Shown one piece after another: positions 1,286 through 16,808 of a stretch of DNA of 64,000 nt (position 1 is its first letter; each line of letters starts with the position of its first letter). The notes under the pieces are model-generated. The model did no database searches. It worked only from the letters and a program-made list of their open reading frames with translations, and was not told the origin of the DNA. The stretch is from assembly GCA_963769425.1 (NCBI GenBank), contig CAVYLP010000005.1, positions 1 to 64,000 on the forward strand, read 5' to 3'. The position numbers and the translations under genes are program-made. Origin of the DNA: Candidatus Bathyarchaeota archaeon. GTDB taxonomy: Archaea; Thermoproteota; Bathyarchaeia; TCS64.

Positions 1286-1450
1286 CAACTTTCTCATTCT
1301 CGTTATCTAAAAGCAGTTCCACTGCGTTATTCTTCAAATTATGTGCATATTTTTTTGTTATTCCACTTTCTAGGGCTTTCTCACGAAGAAAAAGCCTATA
1401 ACCTATCTCTTTACTTTCGGCCCTTCGATGAGAACTCTCTTAGTGACCAC
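1286..1450 (-). pseudogene. 5' fragment of a second acylphosphatase-family gene, frameshifted and truncated by the right inverted repeat
   Basis: Manual translation from GTG at 1450 (GGTGA RBS at 1465-1461) gives MVTKRVLIEGPKV, then a frameshift, then EIGYRLFLREKALESGITKKYAHNLKNNAVELLLDNENEKV. Not in the ORF track. Confidence 0.7.
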
Positions 1451-1774
1451 CTTTTAACACTCACCGAATCGGTCTTCTACAAGTAAAGCAGGCCATAGAT
1501 TAAAGTTATCTTTCATTATAGGTAAATTATGCTTACGGTAAACTGATGATTATTATTGTACACACTTTAGTGATTAATGATTGAAATAAAAATGATGGGA
1601 ATTGTAGGTCCCTAAAAATTCGCTCTCGTTGCTTCCATCCATAATTGTAAATTTTCCATCCTAAGGTAGTCTTTGGTTATATTTTCTGTAGGGGTCGCTT
1701 TATCTGTTGGATCCTCCAGCATATTTAACGCCAGATTAAGGAGCTGAATCAGGCTGTCTAGTGACGTATCTGAA

Positions 1775-3313
1775 ATGATGCGCGGCTCGGCCCGGGGGAG
1801 CCTGATGCTCCTAGTGGGCCAGATAGTCACAGCCATCATCTCGACTTTCACAGTCATCTGGATGGCCAGGTTCCTAGGCCCCACAGCCTACGGCCAATAC
1901 ACAATCGCGTTACTACCCATCTCAATCGCCCTACTCTTCCAAGACCTCGGAATGAACACCGCATTGATGAGATTCTGCGCCCTATATCGACACGAGAGAC
2001 GACACTCTGAACTCAAGACAATCGTCGTAACCGGGTTAGTCTTCAGCATATTTACAAGCATCATAATCAGCGCGGCAATGTACCTATTCGCCGACCCAAT
2101 CGCCACAGTCTTCCTAAAGAGACCCGAGGTAACGCCGCTGGTTCAGGCTTCGGCCCTAGCTGTGCTAGGCGGTGGAGGCCTCCTGACAACGATTCAGGCT
2201 ATACTCGTCGGCTACGAGATGATGGGGGTCAGGAGCTTCACCCAGATCTTCTGGTCACTCATGCGAACAGTCTTCACAGTAGCACTACTACTAATTGGAC
2301 TCGGTGCTTTTGGGGCTGTATTAGCCTACACAGCTTCCCAGATTGTCGCCGGGTTGGTCGGAGTTCTTCTTGTCTTCTTAGTCATCAAATTCGAGGGAGG
2401 AAAAACGAGTCTCAGCTGGACCGTATTAAGGAAATTTCTCAGTTATGGACTCCCTGTCTCCATGGGATCTCTAATCGGCGGAGTCCTATCCCAATTATTC
2501 AACAGCCTAATGGTCATATATGTAGCCACTGACCTAATCGGAAACTACGGTGCGGCCACAAACTTCGGCGTCCTCGTATCCTTCCTAACCGTCCCCATCT
2601 CAACGACCCTCTTCCCACTCTTCAGCAAGTTCAAGAAGAATGACGTAGAGCTAAAGGCGATCTTCCGCTTAGCCGTCAAGTACACTGCGATGATAACGAT
2701 ACCCGTGGTCCTAGTAATCATAGCACTCTCAGCACCACTCACCCGGATCATCTACGGAGTCGACTATCCATACGTGGCCGAATACCTCAACCTATACATC
2801 CTGACCTTCGCCTGGGAAGGCTTAGGCGGCATCTCCCTCGGAAATGCAATCAGCGGAGTCGGCGAGTCAAAGGTAAGCTTCCGAGCAAGCGTCTACACAT
2901 TCATCACAGGAACAATCCTAGTATTCGCCCTCGGCCCAACCTATGGAATAGTTGGAATACTGATTACAATGATAATTTGCCCTAGAGCTGGCTGGATCTA
3001 TCAGATCACCTGGGCGAAGAAAAACATGAATCTGACTGTGGATTGGGGCTCGACGGTAAAAATATACTTAACCGCATTCGCAGCATTCGCAGCCACATAC
3101 CTATTGGTTTCAGTATTGAGTCTGAAAGGTTGGATAGCATTAGTCGCTGGAGGGTTAACGTATTTACTAATCTATGCCTTTGGACTTCCTCTCAGTGGTG
3201 CAATAAAGAAAAGTGACCTCTCTCAACTTGGAGTCCTTGTTGAGGGATTAGGTCCGATAGGACGAATCGGTAGATCGCTTCTCTCGATTTTGGGCAGATT
3301 CACAAAAGACTGA
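1775..3313 (+). CDS. Oligosaccharide flippase (Wzx/MOP superfamily)
   Basis: 512 aa, about 14 TM segments, ARFLGPTAYGQY and DLGMNTALMRF motifs. Confidence 0.85.
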   Translation: MMRGSARGSLMLLVGQIVTAIISTFTVIWMARFLGPTAYGQYTIALLPISIALLFQDLGMNTALMRFCALYRHERRHSELKTIVVTGLVFSIFTSIIISAAMYLFADPIATVFLKRPEVTPLVQASALAVLGGGGLLTTIQAILVGYEMMGVRSFTQIFWSLMRTVFTVALLLIGLGAFGAVLAYTASQIVAGLVGVLLVFLVIKFEGGKTSLSWTVLRKFLSYGLPVSMGSLIGGVLSQLFNSLMVIYVATDLIGNYGAATNFGVLVSFLTVPISTTLFPLFSKFKKNDVELKAIFRLAVKYTAMITIPVVLVIIALSAPLTRIIYGVDYPYVAEYLNLYILTFAWEGLGGISLGNAISGVGESKVSFRASVYTFITGTILVFALGPTYGIVGILITMIICPRAGWIYQITWAKKNMNLTVDWGSTVKIYLTAFAAFAATYLLVSVLSLKGWIALVAGGLTYLLIYAFGLPLSGAIKKSDLSQLGVLVEGLGPIGRIGRSLLSILGRFTKD

Positions 3314-3322
3314 TTTCGAAGG

Positions 3323-4570
3323 CTAACCCGTGTCTAAGCTATTGATTCTTGTGACTGTCATTGTCGCGAGAAACGTGATTGCCGAAGCGATGATGAATCC
3401 CACCGAGTAACCGTACAATGTTATCAGGATTCCCCCAACTGCGGAGCCGATTGCTGCAGCAATTGCTGTTGCCGATATGAGTTGGCCAACCACGCTGCTC
3501 TTCCGATCCTCAGGTGCCTGCGAAATAGCGAAGCTACTTAGAGGTAGCCACAGCATCGCGTAGAATACGTTGATCATGGCTGAGATGATTAGGGGGAAGA
3601 TGAAGACGTAACTAGGTGGGCTTGGGATTAAGAAGGGGAGAGGAGCCCAACATAGAACGAGGAGTGCACGAGCTGAGATTAGATCCTTCAAGTGTTGAGG
3701 ACCAGTTTTTGCTCGAGGGGCTATCCAGATGAAGGATACAGCTGCAGCTATGCCGTTGCCAACGTTTAGGGCGAGAATAAGGCTGTCACTTAGGCCGAGG
3801 GCCTTCATGAGCGGAGTCATCCCTACGGAGTAGATGCTTATCCCCGTCCAGTGAATGAAGGCAGTGATCATGAGTAGCTGAATCGAGCTCAACCTATTCA
3901 GGCTGGTTGGTAGCCTGATTTTCCGAATGTCAATATGTTGGAGTAGAGGTCTTGGTGATAAAAGTCCTTCAACGTCATGTAGCATTTGGCTAAATGAGTG
4001 CCTCTCGAATGTAATCACCGGCTCCTTCCCAAGTCTCCACAAGAAAAGTGCAGCCAATAAGCAGACGCCGGCTGAGATGTAGAAGAGGCTCTGTGTAGGA
4101 TAGTAATTAGCTGCAAAAGTGAATGCTAATAGGCCGACTATGTTTCCGATGCTCATTATTGAATTAAGCCGTGCAATCTCCCCTGACCAGTTTTTACCCA
4201 TGCAGCATTCAACGGTGTACATCACGGCGATTGGGGCGACGCCGCTACTCACGGCTATCACGAGTGTGTAGAGAATTGTGATCTGGGGAATCCCATTCAC
4301 TATACTCAAGGCTGCAAAAAGGGGAACGAGGATAACCGAGAAGAAAAGTAGGTAGATCTTCCTCTGAGAGGAAACGTCCGATAGGCGCCCCCAAACCATG
4401 GAGAGAACGAAGCTGGCCGCTGAGCCCGCTGCGCTGATCGCGCCCACCTCCGCAACACTTGCACCTAATGAAAGCGCGACAAGTGTAACTAGCAAGCCGG
4501 GGTTCCCAATGGCCATGTAGAGGGGAATCATAGAGAGATGCCAGCGCGTCTCCTTCTTGTCACGAGACAT
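3323..4570 (-). CDS. MFS transporter
   Basis: About 12 TM segments; motif A-like WGRLSD..SQRK. Confidence 0.85.
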   Translation of the reverse strand: MSRDKKETRWHLSMIPLYMAIGNPGLLVTLVALSLGASVAEVGAISAAGSAASFVLSMVWGRLSDVSSQRKIYLLFFSVILVPLFAALSIVNGIPQITILYTLVIAVSSGVAPIAVMYTVECCMGKNWSGEIARLNSIMSIGNIVGLLAFTFAANYYPTQSLFYISAGVCLLAALFLWRLGKEPVITFERHSFSQMLHDVEGLLSPRPLLQHIDIRKIRLPTSLNRLSSIQLLMITAFIHWTGISIYSVGMTPLMKALGLSDSLILALNVGNGIAAAVSFIWIAPRAKTGPQHLKDLISARALLVLCWAPLPFLIPSPPSYVFIFPLIISAMINVFYAMLWLPLSSFAISQAPEDRKSSVVGQLISATAIAAAIGSAVGGILITLYGYSVGFIIASAITFLATMTVTRINSLDTG

Positions 4571-4741
4571 TAACTGATGATTCCCTCACACAGCCCACAT
4601 CTTTAGGGGTTATAAATAAAGTAACCATTAGCGTTGATGCTAAAACTCTTTACATACTGAATGTTATCGATTTTTTACTCAGGAATATGCTAAGTAGGCC
4701 ATCTATAAAGGTACTTAACTAGGTAAAATGTCCCAGTAATT

Positions 4742-5140
4742 ATGGATTTACCCACTTTAAGCCTCCTCCTACAGCTACTAATCTTCGCTATGCTAGTTTT
4801 CGGGTATCTCCGATTCAGAGCTGGTGACCTTAAAGGCCATGGATTGGTTCTAGCTACAGCTACGGTCATTCACATTGGAGTGATTATTCTCAGGATGATA
4901 CCTGCAATGGCAGCCGATCCCGAGTTTACGTATATCACCCTCGATCCCGTGAGTCTAATTCACTGGGGACATGTTGCTCTGGGTCTTCTCGCCCCAGCCC
5001 TAGGAGTTTACATATCCCTGAGGTGGTTTGTGCATGGCTCCGATCCTCGTTTTTGCAGGGGTAAATGGCTGATGAGGATCACGTTCGTAACTTGGTTAGT
5101 GTCCCTACTGTTTGGCATTGTTATGTATTTTATAGGCTAG
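4742..5140 (+). CDS. DUF420-like 4-TM membrane protein with several His residues
   Basis: Four TM segments; HG, IH and HWGH His residues; W..S...G ending. Confidence 0.55.
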   Translation: MDLPTLSLLLQLLIFAMLVFGYLRFRAGDLKGHGLVLATATVIHIGVIILRMIPAMAADPEFTYITLDPVSLIHWGHVALGLLAPALGVYISLRWFVHGSDPRFCRGKWLMRITFVTWLVSLLFGIVMYFIG

Positions 5141-5166
5141 TTTTTTCACCTAGCATACTCGTACGT

Positions 5167-5928
5167 CTACAGAAATAGATCTTTCTCCCTAGGCCAAACC
5201 AAGTCCGCGGCCTTCGATGCCTCATCAAACCGAACCGTGTAACCTCGTATGATCGCTGCAGGCGTCCCCTCCGAAGCTTGCCCGATCACCAGCTCAGCTG
5301 CCGCCGCTAACTCATCAGCGATGGCAATCCTCTTCACCTTCAACTCGTACCCGAAGAGGTCCGTCTCCCCCCTCCTGTCGAGAATAACGGATAACCCCGA
5401 TGCTCCGATGGCGACGTTCACCTCGCCGTCCTTGTGAGCTCGACCATGTGTATCTGATATAATCACAGAGACCTTTTTTCCGGATAACTCCTCCAACCTA
5501 AGGCGTATAGCCCTCGCTGAAGCATCGGGGTCCAAGGGTAACAACGCCACCTTCTCACCACCCTCAACATTTGACTTATCGATGCCCGAGTTTGCACAGA
5601 CGAATCCATTCTTCGTCTCGGTAATGAGGATGCCCGGTGCCATTCTCCTCACGGCCCTTGATTCCCTCAAGACTACTTCTACGACTCTTGGATCCTTTCC
5701 CGTGTACGCTGCAAAGTTGTTCGCTGGACCGGACGGTGAGACAGTAGCGAGATCGATAAGTCTGTTCTCAGCTTTTGATACGATCTTATGGGTTACGACG
5801 ATAATGTCGCCGTCACATATTGGGTTTCCGAGCTTATTCGAGGCCTCTATTAATAACATAGGGACATCGTCCCAAGCCTTAATCATGGGTAGACCTGTCA
5901 GGGGGATGATTTGGATGCTCATTGACAT
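5167..5928 (-). CDS. cofE: Coenzyme F420-0:L-glutamate ligase
   Basis: KIVSKAE, CANSGIDKSN, LLPLDPDASA, SDTHGR, DELAAAA and IIRG motifs. Confidence 0.92.
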   Translation of the reverse strand: MSMSIQIIPLTGLPMIKAWDDVPMLLIEASNKLGNPICDGDIIVVTHKIVSKAENRLIDLATVSPSGPANNFAAYTGKDPRVVEVVLRESRAVRRMAPGILITETKNGFVCANSGIDKSNVEGGEKVALLPLDPDASARAIRLRLEELSGKKVSVIISDTHGRAHKDGEVNVAIGASGLSVILDRRGETDLFGYELKVKRIAIADELAAAAELVIGQASEGTPAAIIRGYTVRFDEASKAADLVWPREKDLFL

Positions 5929-6044
5929 TTACTGAATAGAGATAACTATTAACAAGTTTGTTCGATTACGAATTCAATTATTAGAAAAATATTGTAGTCT
6001 ATCGGAAAAAAACTTTTAATTTTTTGTATAGATGCTCTCCGTTT

Positions 6045-6842
6045 CTAATATTTCTCGATGCTCATTATCAGAAATCCGTACACAAAGATCATTGACTCCG
6101 CCATCACGATCACGTCGTAGAAGGGTCCACCCCTAATGAACAGTATACCTCCCGTTCCTGATACCCAGACAAATACTAGGGCGGCAAGGATGAAGAATCG
6201 CGCACTCGCACTCTTCCTAAGAGAGATGAAAAGTGAGGCTATAATTAGTACTCCAGTAAAGAATGCTAAAACGAAGTGCACATACCAAATAGTGCCAAAG
6301 AGGGCGCTGAAAATCGATGTGACACCAAATAAAACGTGGAAGGAAATCGACGCTAACGCTGCATAGACCAATTTTAGTTTAAGATCCTTTGGGTCAGTTC
6401 TTATTCGGCCCAGACTGTTCGCTACTTTAGCTAAGGATATTCCCGTGATGGGTATTCCTACCCCGATTGTGGCGGTCATAGCGAGGTTGATCAGGTCCAT
6501 GTTGGCCGTGGTGGGGTTCCCCAGGAAAATCCAGCCTGTGGATCCACCAAATATTGCTACGAGAAAGAGCCCAACGTTGAGCAGGTAAATACCCCTGAAT
6601 CCGCGTAAACGAGCGAGAACCCCCACCGTTCCGCTGACGACCGCGAAGCTAGCCGCTAGAAATCCGTGCAGCATAACGATTGGCGAGGTGACAGCTGCTT
6701 CCTGAATAACCAAGGCCTGCCATACCCCAACCGAATAAGTTAGAATCAGCAGGAAGGCCTGGAGGTAGATCAGACTGACGAGCAACTCCCCACCTTCCAC
6801 TAACTGACGCGTGGAGTTCTTTGGCTGTGATGCTTGGCTCAT
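6045..6842 (-). CDS. Uncharacterised 8-TM membrane protein (two 4-TM repeats, each with His and Met)
   Basis: Likely start MSQASQ at 6842, overlapping the upstream stop. Paralogous to 6839..7855. Confidence 0.75.
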   Translation of the reverse strand: MSQASQPKNSTRQLVEGGELLVSLIYLQAFLLILTYSVGVWQALVIQEAAVTSPIVMLHGFLAASFAVVSGTVGVLARLRGFRGIYLLNVGLFLVAIFGGSTGWIFLGNPTTANMDLINLAMTATIGVGIPITGISLAKVANSLGRIRTDPKDLKLKLVYAALASISFHVLFGVTSIFSALFGTIWYVHFVLAFFTGVLIIASLFISLRKSASARFFILAALVFVWVSGTGGILFIRGGPFYDVIVMAESMIFVYGFLIMSIEKY

Positions 6843-7855
6843 CTTTTCCCCTCCCCAAAGATCTGCTTCATCGTAATGGCTTGAACCACATCGAGGGTCG
6901 CGTAGTAGGCGAGGAAAAACGCGAGCATGAAGATCAGCGACATAACCCATCCACCGACCAGTGTCAACGAGCCAGTTGCCCTGCCCCCACCGGTTGCGAG
7001 GAATAAGAGTCCACCTACAGAACTCACAGATATGGACGCGAGGGCTCCGAAGCTGAAGAACGCGGCTCTCCTCATCCCATAAACGTAGGCAGCGATCATC
7101 ACGAAGAATGAGAAACCAAAGTTCAGTGTCGTGAGAATCATGTGCAGAATGTTAGTCGGGTCGCCTATGTTGATGGTATTGACGCCCGACGTTATCCAGA
7201 TGTTAATGTACATGCCTGTAAAGTAGAGGAATAGATAGACTACGAAGTTTAGGTAGCACACGTTGAGGATGATCTTGAGGTTGGGGAGGCTCAATCCACT
7301 TGATGCCTTTAGCGGTTTCTCTGCCCCAATGTGTTGCTTACCCAGAACTTTGCCGGATGCGTCTAGTAATCCGTACTTGAGGAGAACATCCTCACGGTAG
7401 ACAAAGATCCTGCTCAGGAAGGTAAGTGTGACTGCTATCATGAAGACTGAGGCCATGATGAAGCTAGAAACGTTCCCATAAGTACTCAGGCTAACGGCCT
7501 GGGTGGAGTAATATATGAAGAGTGGCCCTCCTATGAATCCCCCACTCCTGACTGAGATTGCGGCGACGTGCAGCCACGAGACCTTATTTAGGCCTAGTTT
7601 CCTGGCTGCGGGAATAATGGGTATACTCATGCCTGTGCTTAGGACTGCAAAGAGCCCATGGGCGAGTAGCAGCGGGGATGTGAGCATCTCGGTTAGAATG
7701 CTCGTTGCAGTTGGTTGGAGTGTACCCGGCACCTGGTAGTAGTAGTTTACTACCATCCCCATCGCGATGGTGCCCCAGTAGAAGAAGAATTGAAGGTATA
7801 GCCATATGTGGATATTGTGTAGTATCTTAGAAGCATCGACTTTTTTTCCACTCAT
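6839..7855 (-). CDS. Uncharacterised 8-TM membrane protein (two 4-TM repeats, each with His and Met)
   Basis: Internal duplication: GMVVN/GMYIN, LAHG/ILHM, GGPLF/GGLLF, FIMA/WVMS. Confidence 0.8.
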   Translation of the reverse strand: MSGKKVDASKILHNIHIWLYLQFFFYWGTIAMGMVVNYYYQVPGTLQPTATSILTEMLTSPLLLAHGLFAVLSTGMSIPIIPAARKLGLNKVSWLHVAAISVRSGGFIGGPLFIYYSTQAVSLSTYGNVSSFIMASVFMIAVTLTFLSRIFVYREDVLLKYGLLDASGKVLGKQHIGAEKPLKASSGLSLPNLKIILNVCYLNFVVYLFLYFTGMYINIWITSGVNTINIGDPTNILHMILTTLNFGFSFFVMIAAYVYGMRRAAFFSFGALASISVSSVGGLLFLATGGGRATGSLTLVGGWVMSLIFMLAFFLAYYATLDVVQAITMKQIFGEGKR

Positions 7856-7927
7856 TCAATTAAACTAATTGAAGAAATGAATTTAAACCGATAACAAAAA
7901 GGGGAAAATTTTATTGGATTTCCGAGA

Positions 7928-8432
7928 TTATTTCACTATAACCATACCCCACATGCCCAGGTCGGTGTGTCCAGGGACTGGGCAGAGGTAGTAATAGGTA
8001 CCTGCTTGATCCGGTGTGAAGGTTACTGAGCCACTCTGCCCCGGTGTTATTGGGTTCGACGCGGATCCAACAGCTGCGTTCCACATCGTCGTCGCAGTTG
8101 CGCTGTTGGCGTTCTTGATGACTAATGCGTGCGGGAACTGACCAACATCGTAGAAAGTCAATGTGTACGTGATCCCAACTGTCATGTTAAGAGTCGGACC
8201 CGGTGACTTCAGAGCGCTCTGAGTTAGACCGAATCCATAGACCGACGCAGAGACCTCGCCCCCGTAGATGGAGATCGAAGCAGTCATTGTTGATCCTGTT
8301 GTTGACCCTGGGGTTGACCCCGGTGGTGGTGGAATGCTCGTTTGAGTCCCCATCCAATAATAGTAGCCACCTACAAGTTACAACAATTACTACCACGGCA
8401 ACAGCCGCGTAGACAACCGTTTTAGATGCCAT
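7928..8432 (-). CDS. Membrane-anchored type-1 blue copper protein (sulfocyanin/rusticyanin-like cupredoxin), frameshifted near 8375
   Basis: Copper ligands FPHAL and YLCPVPGHTDLGM (C-x4-H-x4-M). The N-terminal anchor MASKTVVYAAVAVVVIVV is in another frame. Pro/Thr linker between anchor and domain. Confidence 0.85.
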
Positions 8433-8588
8433 TCATAACACCTCTTAACGATCGAACTTTTTTTCCTCAACTATTCCTCAGGAATGTTTCTTTTTAAACC
8501 CGTAACAAATTGCGTTGTTTTTAAGGCTATTCAAAGTTCAACTGTTTATAATCAAAGTTTTAGTAGAAAATCTATTGCGAGTAAGATC

Positions 8589-9555
8589 ATGGGCGAAAAA
8601 AAATCGAATAAAAAAAATGATATGAAAGCCAAAAAGCCTGACGAGAGTCGACGTAACTTCTTGAAGTACGCCGGAGTTGGAGCAGCTGGAATAGCTGTCG
8701 GTGCGATCGTAGAGTATCCTTTCCTGAACGGTGAGGTTCAGAGCGCGAACAGCCAACTGCAGACTGCGAACAGCCAGCTGCAAACAGCCAACCAGAAGAT
8801 CTCCACCCTGAACTCTCAGCTTCAAACAGACACCTCACAAATATCCAGTCTCCAGGCACAGGTTGCAGAGAGTTCAGCATTCATCTCCTTGAATCTAAAG
8901 GAACAATCACTCCTCGAGTCGATTGTTGAGAGCCATCGTCCCCACGGACGCAAATGGGCCGGGGGCAAAAGAGGCAGGGGTCATCTACTTCATCGACAAA
9001 CAGCTCGCGACTGATTATGGCAAGAGTGCTAACGATGTACGATGAAGGGTCCATTCATCCCACAGGGAATGAGTGGCCCGATCACCGTTGGAGGCATTAC
9101 GTATCCTGGTGGGACCCCCTCGGTCCCATTTGCTGGTGGGCAGCGTCTCCAGTACTCGATGGCTATGAAGGAGTTCTGGCGGTACGGTCTGCTTGCCCTT
9201 CAGGCTTATGCAAACTCAGCTTATGGATCCGACTTCGAGAAGCTGACTGGTCCTCAGAAGACTCAGGTTTTGACTGACCTCTTCAACAATAAGCCCACGA
9301 GCTTCAACTCGATCATGCCACAGGACTTCTTCAACGAGCTGATCTTCATGGCTTGGTCCGGCTTCCCTAATGGACCCCTCATACGGGGGGAACATCAATA
9401 TGGTCGGTTGGAAGCTAGTGGCATTCAACGGTACTAACATGGGCAACTTCTACGGGGAGGGGCTTCACTCCGTGGATCTCATGGTAGCTAACAAGCCGAC
9501 GCGGCTGCAACCCGCGAGTCTTGGGCAGTTCCAGAAAGGAGGGGGGGTGATGTAA
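8589..9555 (+). CDS. Gluconate 2-dehydrogenase subunit 3 (gamma) family protein with TAT signal and coiled-coil stalk; about 3 frameshifts
   Basis: SRRNFLK twin-arginine motif. Joined frames give IVPTDANGPGAKEAGVIYFIDKQL ... GF.MDPSYGGNINMVGWKLVAF, typical of this family. Confidence 0.8.
8745..8795 (+). repeat. 21-bp coding tandem repeat (ANSQLQT heptads, about 2.4 copies)
   Basis: gcgaacagccaactgcagact / gcgaacagccagctgcaaaca / gccaaccag. Confidence 0.85.
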
Positions 9556-11383
9556 ATGAGTAATGTAATTCAGCATCCGGAGGTCGACGTACGTCGTCCT
9601 TGGCTTAGGCGCTATGGGTGGAGTGGTGGCGACTGAGATCGCGAAGGCGGGCTTCAAGACGGTAGGCCTAGAGAGAGGGCCCTACTGGGACTTCGTCAGC
9701 GATTTCACAACCACGAAGTACGACGAGTGGGGCATCGGCTTCATGCGCAAATACGACCACTCCTTCGCGGTGTCAGCGCCGACTCTTAGAAATGATCGAT
9801 CGCAGTTTGCTTTGCCCGTGAGAAGGAGCACCGCAGGCGGCGCCGGTCAGTACATATCTGAGGGCTTCGGTGTCGGCGGGATGACGCAGCACTACGGGGG
9901 CCTCATGGGGAGATTCCCACCATGGGTCTACCAGATGTACTCTGAGACGGTTAACAAATACGGGCTGGATTTCCTCAACAAGACGATACCCCACCAGGAC
10001 ATCAACGATTGGCCGATGACCTACGACGACTACGTACCATACTATAACAGATGGGAAAAGATGTGGGTGTGTAACTGGCACCGACAGAGGGTCCACTGGT
10101 CCCTGGACTAACAGGTTACCCACTACCTCCCTCCCCCCCGACACCGGTAGGAACCATGTACCGTGACGCCGCTGAGTCGCTCGGCTACCACACTTACCCC
10201 ACACCCACATCCCTAGCGACGCAACCATTTACCAACGAGTATGGAGTACAATGCAATGCGTGCGTCTACGACGGCTGGTGCGGGGCAGCTTGCAACTACG
10301 TCTGCGAGACGGGTGCCAAGGCGAACCCCGCGAACAGGACTATACCCGCAGCCCTGCAGACTGGGAACTTCGACATGAGGACTGGAAGCTGGGTCTACAG
10401 GCTAGACACAGACTCAACAGGTAAAGTAACCGCAGCACGATACCTAGATCTAGAAGGGAACGTGCACGTCCAACCCGCGAAGGTCTTCTTCAACGGCCTC
10501 TGGGGATACAACCTAATCAGGATGATGCTACTCTCAGGCATAGGGAAGCTACCTACGACCCAGTGAACATCAAGGGCTCACTCGGAAGGGGAGCTGCAAA
10601 CGGTGTACCAGCCGCAACTGTTCGGAGCATCTCGGGTACACTCGACACCGTCGGAGGAAACGCATATTCCGCTGGAAACGCCCTCGCGGGTGGCTTCACC
10701 ATCATGGAGTTCGCCGACGACTTCGTAGACCACACAGGTCTAGACTTCATCGGAGGTGCCTACCCCTTTGGCATCGGAGGCTACCTTGGTGGCGGCCCCG
10801 GCAATTTCAACCTCTACGCGAATGGACCCGACACTACCATGATGGGGAGCGCTTTCAAGGCAAGCCTCAAGGACACCTTCCTGCCTCAGAAGCTGACGAT
10901 AAACATAGCACCATACGGTATGTGGCCTCCGACGACCGACTGGTTCATCGACATCGACCCACACTACACCGACGCATACGGCGACCCAGTAGCTAGGATG
11001 ACACTCGACTACGGCCTCAACACCTTCAAGTGCGCCAACTACTTCGCACCCAAATACGCTGATATACTGACAAAGATGGGGGCGACGAACGTAACGGTCT
11101 CTGATCCGGTCTCAGGCGAGGACCAGCACATGTTCACATTCCCAGCGCACATAAGGGGTGATGCCAGGCTTGAACGGATCCAACCATCTCCGTCTTGAAC
11201 AAGTGGCACCAGTGTTGGAAGAGCGAGAACCTCTTCGCAGCGGGCGAGGTCACCGACCCTGTAGGTGACAACACGACTGTTGGCTAGACTGGCATCGAGG
11301 AACCCACCCAGCTCGGGGCGGCGAGCTACGTCGCAGCAGAGGGGATTAAGAAGTATCTCCAGAGTCCAGGAATGCTCGTTTAA
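9556..11383 (+). CDS. GMC oxidoreductase, gluconate 2-dehydrogenase flavoprotein-like; multiple frameshifts
   Basis: VDVVVLGLGAMGG dinucleotide fold, LERGP, GVGG, DWPMTYDD, Cys cluster CVYDGWCGAACNYVC, DIDPHYTDAYGDP, C-terminus YLQSPGMLV. Split across ORFs at 9614, 10156 and 10563. Confidence 0.82.
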
Positions 11384-11497
11384 AATCCGGGTCGATTATC
11401 TTTCCTTGATAGATTATTTGCCACTCATTTTAATGCCAGATAGATTTGAAGTTTCTACACCATTACTTATTATAAAAGCGACGAAGAAATCCTATCT

Positions 11498-11698
11498 CTA
11501 ATTCGTTTCTTCATGCCCCTGATTTGTCTTGTTTTTCGATCTTCTGTCCTGAACGAAGAGTATCGCGAGGACTAACGCAACGAGGATTCCGTATACCCAC
11601 CATATCGATGGATTTGTCGATATTATATCGAGGCCGGTGATTGCGATCACGGCAAGTATGATGAGAATTCGCAGATTACGTGTGAGTCCCTCGTCCAT
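11498..11698 (-). CDS. Small 2-TM hypothetical protein
   Basis: Two hydrophobic segments and a basic tail. Confidence 0.55.
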   Translation of the reverse strand: MDEGLTRNLRILIILAVIAITGLDIISTNPSIWWVYGILVALVLAILFVQDRRSKNKTNQGHEETN

Positions 11699-11823
11699 GC
11701 CTCAGATGTTATCGAGGTTGTTCATAGGTTCTTCCCCATAATAGGCGCGCAACCTTGTCTTTAAATTGACAACAGACGCTAAGAAATCTCACCAATCCCG
11801 TTGAATACTCTTTCACATACTCA

Positions 11824-11835
11824 GCTATATATAGC
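11824..11835. promoter_or_regulatory. Palindromic TATA box (GCTATATATAGC)
   Basis: Perfect 12-bp palindrome with a TATATATA core, upstream of the candidate ncRNA. Confidence 0.45.
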
Positions 11836-11856
11836 GAAGTCGTCGGGGACGCGTCG

Positions 11857-12060
11857 CCGGAACCATCTGAAACGTGTCAAAAACCATTGAATATCCATTG
11901 AAAACCGTTGCATTCCGGGTGCCTTCAACATCCATTGAAGGGAGTGGATCGCGGTTCATTGAACGATGTGAATGGAGGCGTTGTGAGTGGACGCCATTCA
12001 ATCTAAGGCGTAACACTGTATGGATTTGTTCATTCATCGGTGTGAAGGCGTCCCGTGGAA
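11857..12060 (+). ncRNA. Candidate structured ncRNA (long rod with internal bubble)
   Basis: 11913-12060 folds by hand into a long imperfect hairpin with 9 G-U pairs on the + strand. TATA box upstream; no credible ORF. The 5' end is estimated from TATA spacing. Confidence 0.5.
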
Positions 12061-12114
12061 ACACCTTATTAGTGGTTACCACTTACAGTTGCCCCAAAAA
12101 CTCAAGGATTAGCA

Positions 12115-13405
12115 TCATCCAGGTGGGGGTCTTACACCTAGAGTGACTGCGATGTTGGTGGGAGTATTACTTCTCAGGATATTGAAGGTAATAGTATCGC
12201 CCGGTTTCTTGTTGCGCTCAATGTAGACCATAAGGTTGTAGAAAGTCTTCAACGGATGGCCGTCTGCGCCAGTGATGACATCGCCACCTATGGAGAGCGG
12301 TGCGCCGTCGACGGTTACTGTGCTCGTCCCACCCCTTAGACCCGCATTACCAGACGGTCCACCGGAGACGACCGAGGTAACGAGGGTACCATATGTGCCC
12401 GCTGGGAGATTCATAGCAGAAACCACTCCCCGGGTCACGTCGACTCCGCTGATTCCGAGGTACGGGTGATTGTAACCCCCTGTTGCTATGAGGCTGGGTG
12501 CCTCACGTGTCACAGTATCACTGGGTACCGCGAAGTTCAGGCCAGAGGATGTCGACGTCGCCCCAGCTGTATTAATCCCGACGACTTCTCCCCGTGAGTT
12601 GAGTAACGGGCCACCACTGTTTCCTGGGTTAACAGCTGCATCAGTTTGGAGCACGTCCACAATGAGATACCCCGCGCCCTCATCTAGCGTTCGCCCAACT
12701 GCACTGATTATCCCCTGTGTCAAAGTGTCTGTTAGTTGGTAGGGGTTCCCAAGAGCGTATACCTGGTCACCCACGACTAAGGCTGATGAAACGCCAATCT
12801 TAAGAGGTTTGAGGAGCGCCGCTGGAGCTGTAACCTTTATGATCGCAATGTCTGAGTAGGGGTCAGCTCCAACAAGAGTGGCGTCGAGGGTTGTTCCATT
12901 TAAAAAGGTGACTGTTATTCCCCCACCTGATGTCGCCCCGGCGATCACGTGGTTATTAGTCACAATACGCCCAGTTGAGTCGTAAACAAATCCACTTCCC
13001 TGGTCAACGCCACCGGCTACAGGCACTTCAATCAACACGACGCTGTTGGCTGTCTGGTTGTAGATCTGTTGGGGGGTGAGTCCTGTCGGAGGTGGTGTTC
13101 CTCCACCTGAGCCTCCACCAGTGCTTATTCCTGCAACTGTGGATTCAAGTGTAGTGATTTTCGTGTTTAAATCTGTTATTTTTGAGTCTAGGGTCGATAG
13201 CTGCGTGTTTGTCTGTTGCACTGTCGAAGCCAAGGTCGACGTTTGAGCAGTAAAAGTGCTAACTTGGTTTCCTACACTAATAAAGACGTACGCTGAGAAG
13301 CCGATTGCGATGATGGCAATTATTATCGCAACAGCTGCCAGCGTGTTTCCTCCTCCCCTCACAGGGGCTGTGTTCTTAATCTCAGGTTCAACAGACGTTT
13401 TTCAT
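12115..13405 (-). CDS. Membrane-anchored HtrA/DegP-type serine protease with PDZ domain
   Basis: TNNHV, SDIA and NPGNSGGPL catalytic triad motifs; PDZ domain; TM plus coiled coil. The true start is probably near 13405, with an indel in the T5 run at 13398-13402. Confidence 0.92.
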
Positions 13406-13664
13406 TCACTTCCTCTTACCAGTCTTTTTTTCTCCAAGGATCGAGAAATGAAGGGCTGCTTATGAACCCCTAAGAAGATGAACTAATAAAAATTCAAATT
13501 CAATGGCTGAGGGTGTACTAAATAGCCAAAAGCTGAAGCCTTTCCTCGACTTTCCACTGAGAGCCAAAATGAATCCAATCCTTGAATCTTTATGAAACGA
13601 TCTGTGATCTAGGGACCACCTTACTAAATTGAATAACCTCGGTAAATCATACAATACCCGGAGC

Positions 13665-14135
13665 ATGACTCACCTAACGAGAATCAGTTTCGGCGTAACA
13701 TCAGCCATCGTCACCAGCTTAGCCTTCATAGTCAGCCTAAGCGGAAATGTAGAGCCGCGGATGCCGATAGTCGGCTCTCTACTGGTATTTGCGATAGCTG
13801 ATAACATATCAGACTCCCTAGGAATACACATCTTTCAAGAATCCGACCTCAAGAAGCCAGGCATCATTAACACATCCACTTTCTCCAATTTCATCGTCAG
13901 ATTCGTCGTCATACTCTCATTCGTCGCAGCTGTTTACTTTTTACCAATCCAACTGGCGGTGATCTCTTCAGTGATCTGGGGGATCTCGATCTTGATGGCT
14001 CTAACATACCTAATAGCAATCGAGCGTAAAACAAAGCCCCTACCAGCAATGCTAGAGCATCTTCTGATAGCTGCACTAGTTGTCGTTGCGAGTTTCCTTT
14101 TCCGATCCTGGATATCTACCTTATTCAACATGTGA
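13665..14135 (+). CDS. VIT1/CCC1-like membrane protein
   Basis: SFG.TSAIVT and AIADNISDSLGIH..QE pattern; about 5 TM segments. Confidence 0.55.
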   Translation: MTHLTRISFGVTSAIVTSLAFIVSLSGNVEPRMPIVGSLLVFAIADNISDSLGIHIFQESDLKKPGIINTSTFSNFIVRFVVILSFVAAVYFLPIQLAVISSVIWGISILMALTYLIAIERKTKPLPAMLEHLLIAALVVVASFLFRSWISTLFNM

Positions 14136-14195
14136 GAACTTGAGAGACCCTCGTTACAAAAATCATCGATTTTAAAAAAATTGGAAAAAGCCCCA

Positions 14196-16808
14196 TCATC
14201 TAGGTTTTAGGTATTTGGCGGCCTCGATCCAGATCGTCGCGACGAATGAGGCGACTATCACCGTCGCCCAGTCGAACCAACCCAGCGCAGTGACCTTAAC
14301 CAGCCCCTGCAGGAAGGGAACGTATACAACCGCGAGTAGCAGACCGACTGCAGAGATGGCCCAGAGAACCATCACCCGATTAGAAAATAGCCCCCTCTTG
14401 AGGAGTGGTTCCTTCTCGGATCTCCTCACGAAGGCGAGGAGGATGTGGCTCACTATCCAAGCTGAGAAAGCGACCGTCTGCGCGTACACTAGGTCTCCGC
14501 TACGGTAGTAGGCCGTTAGGTAGCAGAAGCTCACAGCCACGAATAGGCTCAGGGCACTCGCAAAGATCCCCGTCAGCGTACCCCTATCAAGGAACTTCAT
14601 CGACGGATTCCTCGGGGGCCTAGACATCAGATCCGACTCGAAGCCCTCCGCGACGAAGCCACTGGACGCGGCCAAGTCCATGAACATCTCGAGCAATATG
14701 ATCTGGATCGGGGCAAAGGGAAGCGGGACATCGAGGATTATTGGTAACGTGAAGATGAGGACGAGCGCCACCTTAACAGCGAGGTAGTACTTTACCCCCT
14801 TCCTGAGGTTATCAAAGATCTTCCTACCCTCCCGTACAGCGCTACCGATGCTCACAAAGTTGTCATCGGTGAGGACTATATCGGCGGCCTCCTTCGCCGC
14901 GTCCGTCCCCCTGACACCCATCGCGATTCCTATCGCGGCCTCCTTGAGCGCCGGCGCATCATTGACGCCGTCGCCGGTGACCGCCACCACCTCACCACTC
15001 TCCTTTAGAACCCTCACAATCCTGAGCTTATGCTCAGGCGTGATGCGTGAGAAGACTGAGGTCGTCTTCACCGCCCTCCCCAACTCCTCGTCGCTCATAG
15101 CCGTAATATCCGGGCCAGTCAGAACCTCGTGAGCGTCGATGCCAACCTGAGACGCTATCGCCTTAGCCGTCTCAGGGTGGTCACCAGTCAGCATGATGAC
15201 CCTGATCCCAGCCTCCTTACACATCTTGACCACGTCTGGGACCTCCTTCCTCGGGGGGTCAATGAAACTGAGTATCCCCGCGAACACTAACCCGCCCTCA
15301 GGAGTCTTGTCAACATCCTCATCATCGATGTCCCTGTAGGCTACGGCGAGTGCGCGTTCACCCATCTGAGCAATTTTCTCAATCGCCTCGTTGACCCTGC
15401 CTCGAACCGAGGCACTTAAGGCGACGGCTCGCTCCCCCTTCAATATCTTGGTGGACCTAGCAAGGACCGCCTCAGGTGCGCCACTGGTGTAGACGCGGAG
15501 CTTGGTACCTTCCCTATAGACGTAGGAGGCCGTCTTCGACCTTGTGTCAAAGCTGAACTCGTTGACGAGACTCCTCTTAGCCAGATCCTCCGTCGAGACA
15601 CCGGAGCTGGTGGCCGCATCAACAACCGCGGCCCCCATAGGGTTGAAGCCCCTGAACCTGTCACTGGTAAGCGTAGTCTGGCCGCGAGTAGCTAAGACAC
15701 CCATCTCGAGGATCCCCCGCTCCGACGCGTCAGCCTTTGGCTCCGATAATTCACCCTGCGAATATATGTGGCCCAGCCTCATCACACTCTCGGTGATGGT
15801 GCCCGTCTTGTCGGTTGCAATGATCGTCACGCTTCCAAGGGTCTCTGAGGCCCTCAGGCGCTTGACCAGAGCCCCACGTTGACTCAACGCGTACGTGCCG
15901 ACCGCGAGGACCATCGTGATGATGATGGGTAACTCCTCCGGAATCACCGCGAATGAGAGTGACAGCCCAGTCAGGATCATAGTCTGCAGCGGCTGACCCC
16001 TCAAGTATCCGAGGGCAGGAATCGAGACGCTGAATATGAGAGCGATCCAAACAAGCGTCTTCGACAGCTGCTCCATCGCCTCCTGAAGAGGCGTCTTCTC
16101 CTCCTTGACCTCTTCAGTCAACGTCGCGATGTGGCCAAGCTCCGTGTTACGCCCAGTCGTCGCGACGATTGCAGCACCCTCTCCCTGAACAATGAGGGTC
16201 CCAGCTAGGACCATGTTTGTAAGTTCGGTGACCTGCGTACCCTCGGGCAGCACGACGTCAGCGGCCTTCGGCACAGGCATAGACTCGCCTGTGAGGCTCG
16301 ACTCATCGAGTTGAAGCCCGAACGATCTGTATAGCCGCGAGTCGGCGGGGATCCTCTCCCCGACGCTGAGCGGTAGCACATCACCAGGCACAAGCTCAGC
16401 TGACTCAACCTCACCAACCTTACCATCACGCAGAACTAGGGGCCTAGGTGTCGTGAGCTCCTTCAGCGAATCGATGCCCTGCTCCGCTTTCCACTCATTG
16501 TAAACCTCACTAAGGACCAGCACCGCGATAACCGTGAAGATCGTCGCAGCGTCGAGGATACTACCCCAGATACTATAAAGCACACCCACCCCAATCAGGA
16601 GGAGGATCATCGGTTCACGACTCTCCTCCTTGAGTGCATCCCAGAAGGTCTCCTTCTCCTCCTCACCGAGCGTATTCTCACCGAACTTCTCCAAACGCAG
16701 CTTCACCTCATCCGAGGTGAGGCCCCTCTCAGGGTCAGTTCCAAGCTCTTTGATGAACTCATCGAACTCCTTCGACGCGGCCTTCGCCGTCTCCGATGCC
16801 TTACTCAT
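14196..16808 (-). CDS. Cation-transporting P-type ATPase (type II-like)
   Basis: TGES, IPEELP, DKTGT, MLTGD and TGDGVNDAPAL motifs. Confidence 0.95.
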   Translation of the reverse strand: MSKASETAKAASKEFDEFIKELGTDPERGLTSDEVKLRLEKFGENTLGEEEKETFWDALKEESREPMILLLIGVGVLYSIWGSILDAATIFTVIAVLVLSEVYNEWKAEQGIDSLKELTTPRPLVLRDGKVGEVESAELVPGDVLPLSVGERIPADSRLYRSFGLQLDESSLTGESMPVPKAADVVLPEGTQVTELTNMVLAGTLIVQGEGAAIVATTGRNTELGHIATLTEEVKEEKTPLQEAMEQLSKTLVWIALIFSVSIPALGYLRGQPLQTMILTGLSLSFAVIPEELPIIITMVLAVGTYALSQRGALVKRLRASETLGSVTIIATDKTGTITESVMRLGHIYSQGELSEPKADASERGILEMGVLATRGQTTLTSDRFRGFNPMGAAVVDAATSSGVSTEDLAKRSLVNEFSFDTRSKTASYVYREGTKLRVYTSGAPEAVLARSTKILKGERAVALSASVRGRVNEAIEKIAQMGERALAVAYRDIDDEDVDKTPEGGLVFAGILSFIDPPRKEVPDVVKMCKEAGIRVIMLTGDHPETAKAIASQVGIDAHEVLTGPDITAMSDEELGRAVKTTSVFSRITPEHKLRIVRVLKESGEVVAVTGDGVNDAPALKEAAIGIAMGVRGTDAAKEAADIVLTDDNFVSIGSAVREGRKIFDNLRKGVKYYLAVKVALVLIFTLPIILDVPLPFAPIQIILLEMFMDLAASSGFVAEGFESDLMSRPPRNPSMKFLDRGTLTGIFASALSLFVAVSFCYLTAYYRSGDLVYAQTVAFSAWIVSHILLAFVRRSEKEPLLKRGLFSNRVMVLWAISAVGLLLAVVYVPFLQGLVKVTALGWFDWATVIVASFVATIWIEAAKYLKPR

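What the first reader, a model, noticed from the sequence alone, without database searches (positions are those of the whole stretch)
6045..11383. Candidate new archaeal electron-transfer system: exported GMC sugar-acid dehydrogenase paired with a blue copper protein and two novel membrane proteins instead of cytochrome c
Seen: two divergent operons share a ~155-bp spacer. Rightward are a TAT-signal gamma subunit and a gluconate-2-dehydrogenase-like flavoprotein. Leftward are an anchored type-1 copper protein and two overlapping 8-TM proteins. Known: bacterial gluconate 2-dehydrogenases have a third, multiheme cytochrome c subunit, and no CxxCH cytochrome gene is present here. Inference: electrons pass from FAD/Fe-S to the cupredoxin and then to the membrane heterodimer, a heme-c-free route. 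That would be surprising in an archaeon that also encodes an anaerobic group 4 hydrogenase.
Basis: partly seen in the sequence, partly recalled or inferred. Interest (0 to 1): 0.78.

Follow-up and report, generated by a model that had tools for sequence, protein, structure and literature searches.

The report
Broken copper-linked sugar dehydrogenase, orphan membrane pair
The five genes are real but form two unrelated modules: a sugar dehydrogenase that uses a blue copper protein where bacteria use cytochrome c, unreadable here in an archaeon that has lost its oxygen-reducing enzyme, and an intact pair of new membrane proteins that in other archaea always sits in a Rieske/cytochrome b operon.

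Summary

(1) The cupredoxin, the TAT-signal gamma subunit and the GMC flavoprotein are cut by 11 single-base frame breaks (1+3+7) within 2.9 kb. None can be made full-length from the sequence as assembled. I put real decay at about 0.6. The rest is mis-assembly, because 13 of 111 conserved genes elsewhere in this assembly are also split.

(2) The layout cupredoxin | gamma-GMC is conserved. It occurs in 34 of 58 evaluable metagenome loci. The closest intact relatives sit beside a CuA-type haem-copper oxidase operon. So "blue copper instead of cytochrome c" is supported in relatives. This genome, however, has no oxidase subunit I, a truncated subunit II, a DUF420 gene with two stop codons, and no cytochrome b.

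(3) The two 8-TM proteins are intact, belong to a tiny family and fold like haem A synthase. In 12 of 12 other genomes they head a Rieske/cytochrome b operon. None of 80 GMC loci carries them, and 0 of 5 tested genomes that carry them has the GMC enzyme.

The proposed step from cupredoxin to the membrane pair is therefore unsupported.

The parts
4742..5140 (+). DUF420 membrane protein gene, a neighbour and possibly part of the same oxidase-related gene set
   Evidence: It matches PF04238 with E 1.8e-6, just below the curated cut-off. A DUF420 gene also flanks the oxidase operon of G400.
6045..6842 (-). memB: intact 265-aa, 8-helix membrane protein with no Pfam family
   Evidence: ORF. Its ATG at 6842-6840 overlaps the memA TGA at 6841-6839. 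No Pfam match even at E <= 10. It lies next to memA in 12 of 12 loci. Invariant residues H59, H189 and E249. The model has pLDDT 74.8, and its best full-length fold matches are haem A synthases: 8aw5_A (Z 15.1, 235 aligned, rmsd 4.8) and 6ied_A (Z 15.1, 244 aligned, rmsd 5.5). They tie in Z with half-length four-helix bundles.
6839..7855 (-). memA: intact 338-aa, 8-helix membrane protein from a very small family
   Evidence: ORF. 15 proteins, this one included, among 5.77 billion. 13 among 1.84 billion representatives with a profile. The model has pLDDT 79.9. Fold matches to haem A synthase: Foldseek 6a2j E 8.6e-3; VIA 6ied_A Z 17.5 (269 aligned, rmsd 5.1) and 8aw5_A Z 17.1 (244 aligned, rmsd 4.5), with the next row at Z 13.4 covering half the model.
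7928..8432 (-). Type-1 copper protein (cupredoxin). Its N-terminal membrane anchor (8432 to about 8378) is out of frame with the copper domain (8353-7928).
   Evidence: PF00127 E 2.1e-9 and SoxE E 1.3e-6. One extra base near 8378 relative to G400's 166-aa cupredoxin. Intact relatives are 157-165 aa, and the best is 83% identical. It is the only PF00127 match in the genome.
8433..8589 (.). 157-bp A+T-rich spacer between the divergent start codons
   Evidence: Read directly. It holds TTTTTAAA and TTTATAA stretches. Reading these as archaeal TATA-like boxes is from my own knowledge and was not tested.
8590..9555 (+). Gamma (small, TAT-signal) subunit, with three frame breaks near 8934, 9032 and 9366
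   Evidence: PF10518 and PF13618. Frame-aware alignment to G400's 286-aa gamma gives 169 of 286 identical residues.
9556..11383 (+). GMC-type FAD dehydrogenase alpha subunit, with seven frame breaks near 9592, 10067, 10086, 10550, 11173, 11286 and 11314
   Evidence: Four tblastn pieces in three frames cover residues 1-600 of intact 600-aa relatives. Frame-aware alignment gives 401 of 598 identical residues to P0034, with no in-frame stop once the frames are followed. The four Cys that are invariant in 14 relatives are present.

Best explanation
The region is a mosaic of two modules that are neighbours only in this genome.

Module A is cupredoxin | gamma-alpha. It is an archaeal form of the exported FAD/Fe-S sugar dehydrogenases (fructose dehydrogenase and FAD-glucose dehydrogenase type). 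In this form one or two anchored blue copper proteins stand where bacteria have a three-haem cytochrome c subunit.

In intact relatives the inferred route is: sugar, then FAD, then the Fe-S cluster, then cupredoxin, then the CuA site of a haem-copper oxidase, then O2. Only the gene arrangement is shown here. The electron path is inferred.

In this Bathyarchaeia genome the oxidase is gone. Subunits I, III and IV are absent, and subunit II is cut before its CuA site. Module A itself is unreadable because of 11 single-base frame breaks. I read it as a decaying relic (about 0.6). Otherwise it is a locally mis-assembled stretch (about 0.4).

Module B is memA-memB, an intact and translationally coupled pair of distantly related 8-helix proteins with a haem-A-synthase-like fold. 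Elsewhere the pair always leads a Rieske/cytochrome b operon. It most likely works as haem-handling or haem-binding subunits of that complex. That role is inferred from the fold, the conserved His residues and the operon. The pair is not the acceptor of the dehydrogenase.
For: Frame breaks:
- locate 1+3+7 breaks.
- The 63 other window ORFs scanned mostly give full-length Pfam matches; two or three junctions look like possible breaks and were not examined.

Module A is conserved elsewhere:
- Gamma lies next to alpha in 74 of 80 loci.
- A cupredoxin lies upstream of gamma in 34 of 58 evaluable loci: 26 of 26 in the 47-52% identity clade, 3 of 11 at 55-62%, 5 of 15 at 68-89%, and 0 of 6 at 30-32%.
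- Oxidase genes lie beside alpha in G400 and in L019, L023, L024, L025, L029, L030, L033 and L080. Pfam confirms COX2, COX1+COX3, COX4_pro, UbiA, DUF420 and two cupredoxins in G400.
- G400's subunit II has the CuA motif.
- PF00033 (cytochrome b) was not found in G400.

Loss of the chain in this genome and its relatives:
- PF00115 and PF00033 were not found in the own genome.
- COX1 was found in 0 of 41 relatives.
- On own contig C6 the order is thermosome, a DUF420 gene with 2 in-frame stop codons, an intact UbiA gene, then a 141-aa CoxII stump without a COX2 domain.
- Same-genus genome G006 holds two GMC relics, one with an in-frame TAG and one lacking about the first 200 codons and lacking gamma.

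Module B:
- The order memA-memB-(small)-Rieske-cytochrome b-small holds in 12 of 12 loci.
- memA/memB occur in 0 of 80 GMC loci.
- 0 of 5 memAB genomes have the GMC enzyme, and 5 of 5 have COX1.
- Both proteins have the haem-A-synthase fold.
- hhalign of memA against memB gives probability 51.7%, E 1.5e-4.
- Complex prediction for memA+memB gave weak support: score 0.60 against a best control of 0.00. That mark was reached by 58 of 80 solved complexes and 2 of 110 mismatched pairs. At 0.60 or under it was reached by only 7 of those 80 and by both mismatches that passed. The runs agree in at least 89% of contacts, and the partner's pLDDT is at least 66.
Against: The breaks may be technical.
- 13 of 111 conserved genes of this assembly are split over frames relative to same-genus genome G001.
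- 12 of the 13 junctions I checked are extra bases in non-homopolymer contexts.
- The 11 breaks here are also single bases (7 extra, 4 missing), with no in-frame stop and no large deletion.
- The read-through alpha protein shows little amino-acid decay. It departs at 3 of about 129 columns that are at least 95% conserved (rank 25 of 90). Its branch length is 0.308 against 0.22-0.30 for its four sisters.
- If the genes are in fact intact, the cupredoxin needs an acceptor in a genome without an oxidase, and memA-memB lie 72 nt downstream of it on the same strand.

Other limits:
- The genome is 91% complete, so absences are not proven.
- The genome loci all have memA 49-61% identical to the window's. 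The closest database relatives of memA (64-68% identical) could not be placed in their genomic context.
- Related loci are not independent samples.
Confidence: 0.62

Rival explanations
1. All five genes form one working, haem-c-free chain: the dehydrogenase reduces the cupredoxin, which reduces the memA/memB heterodimer in the membrane. The frame breaks are assembly errors.
For: - Cupredoxin, memA and memB are co-oriented, with a 72-nt gap and then a 4-nt overlap.
- The genome has no oxidase to take electrons from the cupredoxin.
- memA and memB have a haem-enzyme fold and conserved His residues.
- The assembly has background single-base errors.
- The alpha protein is well conserved when read through the breaks.
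Against: - 0 of 80 GMC loci have memA/memB.
- 0 of 12 memAB loci have GMC, gamma or cupredoxin within 8 kb.
- 0 of 5 memAB genomes have the GMC enzyme.
- G400, with the intact module, had no memA match in the phylum sample.
- No contig length is shared between the memA hits and the cupredoxin hits, whereas two are shared between cupredoxin and GMC hits. This is a crude test.
- The break density is about 25 times the assembly's background, and the breaks fall only in these three genes.
Confidence: 0.1
2. Module A is intact in the organism (the breaks are assembly artefacts) and works with an unknown acceptor other than memAB. Examples would be an extracellular or humic acceptor, or an oxidase in the unassembled 9% of the genome.
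For: - The background of extra-base errors: 13 of 111 genes split, and 12 of 13 junctions are extra bases.
- No stop codons and no amino-acid decay in the read-through proteins.
- Completeness is 91%.
- A CcmF-like gene and a 738-aa protein with one CxxCH motif lie on C2.
Against: - The CoxII stump abuts the UbiA gene, so the oxidase genes are deleted rather than merely unassembled.
- The neighbouring DUF420 gene has two nonsense codons, which is not this assembly's usual error type.
- COX1 was found in 0 of 41 relatives.
- The two GMC copies of G006 are broken by a stop codon and by truncation.
- 4 of the 11 breaks here are missing bases, against 1 of 13 in the background.
Confidence: 0.2
3. 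The whole block, memA/memB included, is a dead remnant of a lost aerobic respiratory chain. memAB are simply not yet hit by mutations.
For: - Their usual partners, Rieske and cytochrome b, were not found in the genome.
- The window's memB is the outlier of its family. It is 33-35% identical to the others (mean column identity of the alignment 64%), and it lacks a loop of about 13 residues and the C-terminal tail.
Against: - There are zero breaks in 1.8 kb of memAB, next to a stretch with 3.7 breaks per kb. At that density about 6 to 7 would be expected.
- The window's copies keep every residue that is invariant in the alignments, as they must, being members of those alignments.
- The ATGA coupling and the purine-rich stretch before memB are intact.
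Confidence: 0.08

Closest known systems
Fructose dehydrogenase of Gluconobacter japonicus (PDB 7W2J and relatives) and FAD-glucose dehydrogenase of Burkholderia cepacia (PDB 6A2U). Organism names and subunit make-up are from my own knowledge.
   Same: The alpha profile matches their large subunits (E 6.1e-23 and 5.6e-17). A small TAT-signal subunit of family PF13618 is encoded just upstream. The Cys-rich stretch is kept; its assignment to a 3Fe-4S cluster is recalled. Alpha has no signal peptide of its own, so it is probably exported with gamma. That export mechanism is also recalled.
   Different: There is no multihaem cytochrome c subunit gene. Instead, one or two cupredoxin genes are transcribed divergently (34 of 58 loci). 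Gamma carries a Q/N/S-rich coiled-coil stretch after the TAT signal. The closest relatives adjoin a haem-copper oxidase operon. In this window the genes are broken.
Blue-copper-based respiratory chains of Nitrososphaerales and Ca. Angelarchaeales (PMC9038741; I read passages only)
   Same: Plastocyanin-like proteins, not cytochrome c, are proposed to carry electrons to the terminal oxidase. Blue copper protein genes are co-located with the oxidase and complex III loci.
   Different: In that paper the donor is a Rieske/cytochrome b complex. Here the copper protein is paired with an exported flavoprotein dehydrogenase, and no cytochrome b was found in G400.
Haem A synthase CtaA/COX15 (PDB 6A2J/6IED from Bacillus subtilis, 8AW5 from Aquifex aeolicus)
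   Same: memA and memB share the 8-helix fold made of two four-helix bundles (Z 17.5/17.1 and 15.1/15.1). memA shows an internal repeat with a His in helix 2 and in helix 6. In 9 of 12 loci memA is split into two halves of about 170 aa. This recalls the compact half-size archaeal CtaA, which I know from memory only.
   Different: There is no sequence match to PF02628, even at E <= 10. Only one conserved His per bundle is seen, not two; the CtaA ligand pattern is recalled. The genomes with memAB also have ordinary compact CtaA-like genes elsewhere (5 of 5 at E <= 0.01, 3 of 5 over the cut-off). The pair is encoded with Rieske/cytochrome b genes, not with the oxidase.
The cbsAB-soxLN-odsN operon of Sulfolobus (recalled from memory, not checked here)
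   Same: Two extra membrane or haem protein genes precede the Rieske and cytochrome b genes, and a small gene follows them. The gene order is the same as memA-memB-x-Rieske-cytochrome b-small.
   Different: No homology was tested or seen. The memA profile found nothing in 400 other genomes of the phylum sample.

Membership tests
Membrane-bound FAD dehydrogenase complexes of the gluconate 2-dehydrogenase / fructose dehydrogenase / FAD-glucose dehydrogenase type | GMC-fold FAD-binding large subunit | tested here: met
   Read through its breaks, the gene aligns over residues 1-600 of intact 600-aa relatives, with 401 of 598 residues identical. The relatives' profile matches the fructose dehydrogenase large subunit (E 6.1e-23) and FAD-glucose dehydrogenase (E 5.6e-17). 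Pfam matches on single fragments are weak: GMC_oxred_N E 0.0032.
Membrane-bound FAD dehydrogenase complexes of the gluconate 2-dehydrogenase / fructose dehydrogenase / FAD-glucose dehydrogenase type | Small subunit of family PF13618 with a twin-arginine signal, encoded just upstream | tested here: met
   PF10518 E 2.2e-5 and PF13618 E 1.3e-9. Gamma lies next to alpha in 74 of 80 related loci.
Membrane-bound FAD dehydrogenase complexes of the gluconate 2-dehydrogenase / fructose dehydrogenase / FAD-glucose dehydrogenase type | Cys cluster of the large subunit (the Fe-S site; this assignment is recalled) | tested here: met
   C235, C241, C245 and C249 are invariant in 14 relatives, and all four are present in the window's reading.
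Membrane-bound FAD dehydrogenase complexes of the gluconate 2-dehydrogenase / fructose dehydrogenase / FAD-glucose dehydrogenase type | Multihaem cytochrome c third subunit | tested here: not met
   No CxxCH motif in a credible ORF within 1-20000. No ORF in the genome has two or more CxxCH motifs.
Membrane-bound FAD dehydrogenase complexes of the gluconate 2-dehydrogenase / fructose dehydrogenase / FAD-glucose dehydrogenase type | Open reading frames able to give full-length subunits | tested here: not met
   Three breaks in gamma and seven in alpha. Whether the breaks exist in the organism could not be tested, because no sequencing run was listed.
Type-1 copper proteins (plastocyanin/azurin family, PF00127) | Cupredoxin domain with His, Cys, His and Met ligands | tested here: met
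   PF00127 at 38.1 bits, over the cut-off of 21.2. The pattern C-x4-H-x4-M, and the upstream His in FPHA, are shared with G400's two cupredoxins.
Type-1 copper proteins (plastocyanin/azurin family, PF00127) | Export or anchor segment in frame with the copper domain | tested here: not met
   The hydrophobic N-terminus (8432 to about 8378) is in another frame. There is one extra base near 8378. The gene call on record for this contig is an 85-aa fragment (P0128).
Haem A synthase (COX15/CtaA, PF02628), considered for memA and memB | Eight-helix fold made of two four-helix bundles | tested here: met
   memA: Z 17.5 (269 aligned, rmsd 5.1) and Z 17.1 (244 aligned, rmsd 4.5), with the next row at 13.4 covering half the model. 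memB: Z 15.1 and 15.1 over 235-244 residues, tied in Z with half-length bundles.
Haem A synthase (COX15/CtaA, PF02628), considered for memA and memB | Sequence membership in PF02628 | tested here: not met
   No match at E <= 10 for any of the 10 memA or 9 memB sequences.
Haem A synthase (COX15/CtaA, PF02628), considered for memA and memB | Two conserved His per bundle (haem ligands; the pattern is recalled) | tested here: inconclusive
   memA has invariant H66 and H96, plus a conserved His in helix 6. memB has invariant H59 and H189. No residue-level structural alignment to CtaA was available.

The most novel reading that the evidence does not exclude
memA/memB are a new class of haem-binding membrane subunits with a haem-A-synthase fold, and they dock blue copper proteins. 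On this reading, in Rieske/cytochrome b operons they would be the missing counterpart of cytochrome c1, passing electrons from the Rieske protein to a cupredoxin. In this genome, if the frame breaks are assembly errors, they would run the other way and accept electrons from the cupredoxin reduced by the GMC dehydrogenase. That would give an oxidase-free, haem-c-free route into the membrane of an otherwise anaerobic Bathyarchaeon.
Probability: 0.1. Interest if true: 0.8.

Novelty: new variant of a known kind. Interest (0 to 1): 0.45.

Why it matters
Three things could be followed up.

First, a conserved pairing of exported FAD sugar dehydrogenases with blue copper proteins in archaea. In the closest relatives it lies next to a CuA-type oxidase, in a genome where no cytochrome b was found. 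This suggests a very short aerobic chain: sugar, then flavoprotein, then cupredoxin, then oxidase. The chain needs neither quinone, nor a bc complex, nor haem c. I found no paper describing it. It can be tested with three recombinant proteins.

Second, memA/memB are a tiny, unnamed family with a haem-A-synthase-like fold that is welded to Rieske/cytochrome b operons. They are candidates for the unknown electron exit, or the haem supply, of archaeal bc-type complexes.

Third, this genus of Bathyarchaeia shows an aerobic chain caught in the course of being lost. The traces are a truncated CoxII, a DUF420 gene with nonsense codons, and GMC relics in two of 18 genomes.

For this window itself the lesson is more sober. 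The five-gene system is a chance neighbourhood, and its enzyme part is not readable.

Tried and rejected
- Sequencing runs: none was listed for 6000-11500. No RNA holder was listed.
- ESM Atlas search for memA: best score 0.83 to unnamed clusters, so no lead.
- Pfam at E <= 10 for memA and memB: nothing meaningful.
- memA as a single protein in 40 relatives, and as a profile in 400 genomes of the phylum sample: found in the own genome only.
- Coverage by long ORFs per 3.5-kb window: the region ranks 183 of 5063. This does not discriminate.
- A codon-usage and overlap heuristic for genome-wide frame switches gave 907 candidates. It was far too noisy and I dropped it.
- Strictly invariant columns: the window departs at 1 of 35, which is uninformative.
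- Comparing the C3 and C6 near-duplicates to gauge assembly error: 126 mismatches and 9 gaps, mostly between genes, so not informative.
- None of the 266 sampled G001 ORFs matches the window, so the window's own background of breaks could not be measured that way.
- In one search the script counted 19 junctions. For one search I dropped L145 and the extra pieces of L133 as matches to paralogues, and I scored 13 junctions in 12 genes.
- Reading the in-frame TAG near 11286 as a nonsense codon. I rejected this in favour of two frame breaks, because the conserved GTHPA motif lies in the other frame.
- Pyrrolysine or another genetic code as the cause of the breaks. I rejected this because the breaks are frame shifts, not stop codons.
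- A complex of the dehydrogenase with the cupredoxin was not sent for prediction.

Full report
**What is there**

The window is the first 64 kb of contig C5 of a 2.55-Mb, 6-contig genome that is 91% complete. Earlier notes of this scan call it Bathyarchaeia.

On the minus strand lie three genes:
- memB, 6045-6842, 265 aa.
- memA, 6839-7855, 338 aa.
- A cupredoxin, 7928-8432.

On the plus strand lie two more, after a 157-bp A+T-rich spacer:
- A TAT-signal gamma subunit, 8590-9555.
- A GMC flavoprotein alpha subunit, 9556-11383.

The memB ATG overlaps the memA TGA as ATGA, behind a purine-rich stretch. Each membrane protein has about eight helices.

**The three redox genes are broken**

Intact relatives of alpha are about 600 aa long (98 hits). 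In the window, alpha is spread over four tblastn pieces in three frames. A frame-aware alignment places single-base breaks near 9592, 10067, 10086, 10550, 11173, 11286 and 11314. Gamma has three, near 8934, 9032 and 9366. The cupredoxin has one, near 8378, between its anchor and its copper domain.

Seven of the breaks are extra bases and four are missing bases. None lies in a long homopolymer, and the C8 and G8 runs in the region read correctly. Once the frames are followed, there is no in-frame stop.

memA and memB have no break. The 63 other ORFs of the window that I scanned mostly give full-length Pfam matches.

**Real decay or mis-assembly?**

*Evidence for artefact*
- I took 111 ORFs of at least 200 aa from same-genus genome G001 that have an orthologue at 55% identity or more in this genome. 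Ninety-eight align as one full-length piece. Thirteen are split over frames.
- Of 13 junctions in 12 of those genes, 12 are extra bases, again in non-homopolymer contexts. So the assembly carries about 0.1 single-base errors per kb of coding sequence.
- The read-through alpha protein is barely decayed. It departs at 3 of about 129 well-conserved columns. Its branch length is 0.308, against 0.22-0.30 for its sisters.

*Evidence for real decay*
- The density here is 11 breaks in 2.9 kb, about 25 times that background. It is confined to the three genes of one functional module.
- The share of missing-base breaks is higher here: 4 of 11, against 1 of 13 in the background.
- The rest of the aerobic chain is demonstrably lost. 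On C6 the order is thermosome, a DUF420 gene with two in-frame stop codons, an intact UbiA-type haem O synthase-like gene, and a 141-aa CoxII stump that ends before the CuA site.
- Neither PF00115 nor PF00033 was found in the genome. COX1 was found in 0 of 41 relatives.
- Same-genus genome G006 holds two GMC relics. One has an in-frame TAG. The other lacks about its first 200 codons and lacks gamma. Both are otherwise 69-72% identical to an intact relative. So good conservation does not argue against relic status in this genus.

I put real decay at about 0.6. No sequencing run could be listed to settle the matter.

**Module A in relatives**

In G400, a genome of the same class, intact gamma (286 aa) and alpha (600 aa) lie next to a full oxidase locus. 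Its genes are DUF420, a cupredoxin, COX2, fused COX1+COX3, COX4_pro, a second cupredoxin, and UbiA. The COX2 protein has the CuA motif. No cytochrome b (PF00033) was found in that genome, which is 94% complete.

Among 80 metagenome loci found with the alpha profile:
- Gamma precedes alpha in 74.
- UbiA/CtaB-like genes lie nearby in 8 loci, COX1 in 7 and COX2 in 5. Many contigs are too short to show such neighbours.
- memA, memB, Rieske and cytochrome b were found in none.

With a cupredoxin HMM, 34 of the 58 loci that have at least 700 bp upstream of gamma carry a divergently transcribed cupredoxin within 1.5 kb. By clade of alpha identity:
- 47-52%: all 26, each with two cupredoxin genes in tandem.
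- 55-62%: 3 of 11.
- 68-89%: 5 of 15.
- 30-32%: 0 of 6 (Pfam confirmation on five loci).

Two cupredoxin hits share their contig length with GMC hits (930924 and 19681). None shares one with a memA hit. This is a crude test.

The closest solved relatives of alpha are the large subunits of fructose dehydrogenase and FAD-glucose dehydrogenase. From my own knowledge, both of those enzymes work with a three-haem cytochrome c subunit. The archaeal loci have a copper protein in that place. This matches the known use of blue copper carriers in archaeal chains (PMC9038741; I read passages only). I found no paper on this pairing.

**Module B**

memA belongs to a tiny family: 15 proteins, its own included, among 5.77 billion, and 13 among 1.84 billion representatives with a profile. 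It was not found in 40 relatives, nor in 400 genomes of the phylum sample.

All 12 loci found in species-representative genomes show the same order on one strand: memA, memB, a small gene, Rieske, a 470-aa cytochrome b, and a 90-aa gene. The records are named as Nitrososphaerales or Nitrososphaerota/Thaumarchaeota (8), Bathyarchaeia (2), 'uncultured archaeon' (1) and 'bacterium' (1). memA is split into halves in 9 of the 12.

Of five of these genomes, 5 have COX1. All 5 have a compact CtaA-like gene elsewhere at E <= 0.01, and 3 of those pass the curated cut-off. None has the GMC enzyme.

The models of memA (pLDDT 79.9) and memB (pLDDT 74.8) both match haem A synthase best over their full length. 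There is no sequence match to PF02628. A profile comparison suggests that the two are distant paralogues.

Complex prediction for the pair gave weak support. The score was 0.60 and the best control 0.00. That mark was reached by 58 of 80 solved complexes and 2 of 110 mismatched pairs. At 0.60 or under it was reached by only 7 of those 80 and by both mismatches that passed. The runs agree in at least 89% of contacts, and the partner's pLDDT is at least 66.

I infer a haem-binding or haem-handling role within the Rieske/cytochrome b complex. In this genome the pair is an orphan, since no Rieske or cytochrome b gene was found.

**Verdict**

The five genes are a chance neighbourhood of two modules.

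There, however, the sink is a CuA-type oxidase and not the membrane pair.

In this window the enzyme part is unreadable. It is probably a relic of an aerobic chain that this genus has lost.

Noticed in passing
whole genome, e.g. C6:83402-83413, C6:805357-805472, C6:820255-820260, C4:227578-227585: About 12% of conserved genes (13 of 111 compared with a same-genus genome) are split by single-base frame shifts. 12 of the 13 junctions checked are extra bases, and they do not lie in homopolymers. This looks like an assembly-wide error mode, and it should be kept in mind for every finding on this genome.
   Followed up: partly
G000 C6:1000512-1004106 (locus L153:512-4106): Remnant of a haem-copper oxidase locus next to a thermosome gene. 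It holds a DUF420 gene with two in-frame stop codons, an intact UbiA-type (CtaB-like) gene and a 141-aa CoxII stump without the CuA site. Subunits I, III and IV and the cupredoxin seen in G400 are missing.
   Followed up: partly
G000 C3:47191-52075 and C6:1003708-1008587: An inverted near-duplicate of about 4.9 kb, 97% identical, with 126 mismatches and 9 gaps. It includes the CoxII stump, an alanine racemase gene and other genes. It could be a true duplication or two strains in one bin.
   Followed up: partly
G000 C2:88389-92532: A CcmF/CcsA-like gene (PF01578) that appears split into two overlapping ORFs of 200 and 474 aa. Next to it is a 738-aa protein with a signal-like N-terminus and a single CxxCH motif. 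So the genome may still make one c-type haem protein.
   Followed up: no
loci L002, L003, L004, L006, L008 (memA junction); also L010 and L013: Where memA is split into two halves, the first half ends in a conserved Gly/Arg-Arg-TAG context. In five genomes the second half continues in the same frame one codon later. I did not test whether the TAG is ever read through to give the fused form seen in the window.
   Followed up: no
window 8720-8870, and gamma genes of G400, L025-L030: The gamma subunits of this archaeal clade carry a Q/N/S-rich heptad-like stretch (weak coiled-coil Pfam matches) between the TAT signal and the PF13618 domain. The signal may stay as a membrane anchor, with the stretch acting as a stalk.
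   Followed up: no
loci L062, L057, L066 and relatives (47-52% clade): Near gamma-alpha and the two cupredoxins lie a GH15 glucoamylase, an amylase-like enzyme with CBM48, a HAD phosphatase and a lactonase-like gene. This hints that glucose, giving gluconolactone, is the substrate. A thermosome gene follows alpha in most loci and also in G006.
   Followed up: no
window 62240-62756 and 50283-51969: Pairs of overlapping same-strand ORFs, which may be further single-base frame breaks of the background kind. One pair is a NuoJ-like fragment of 83 aa followed by a 93-aa ORF. The other is a 366-aa ORF overlapped by a 280-aa ORF.
   Followed up: no
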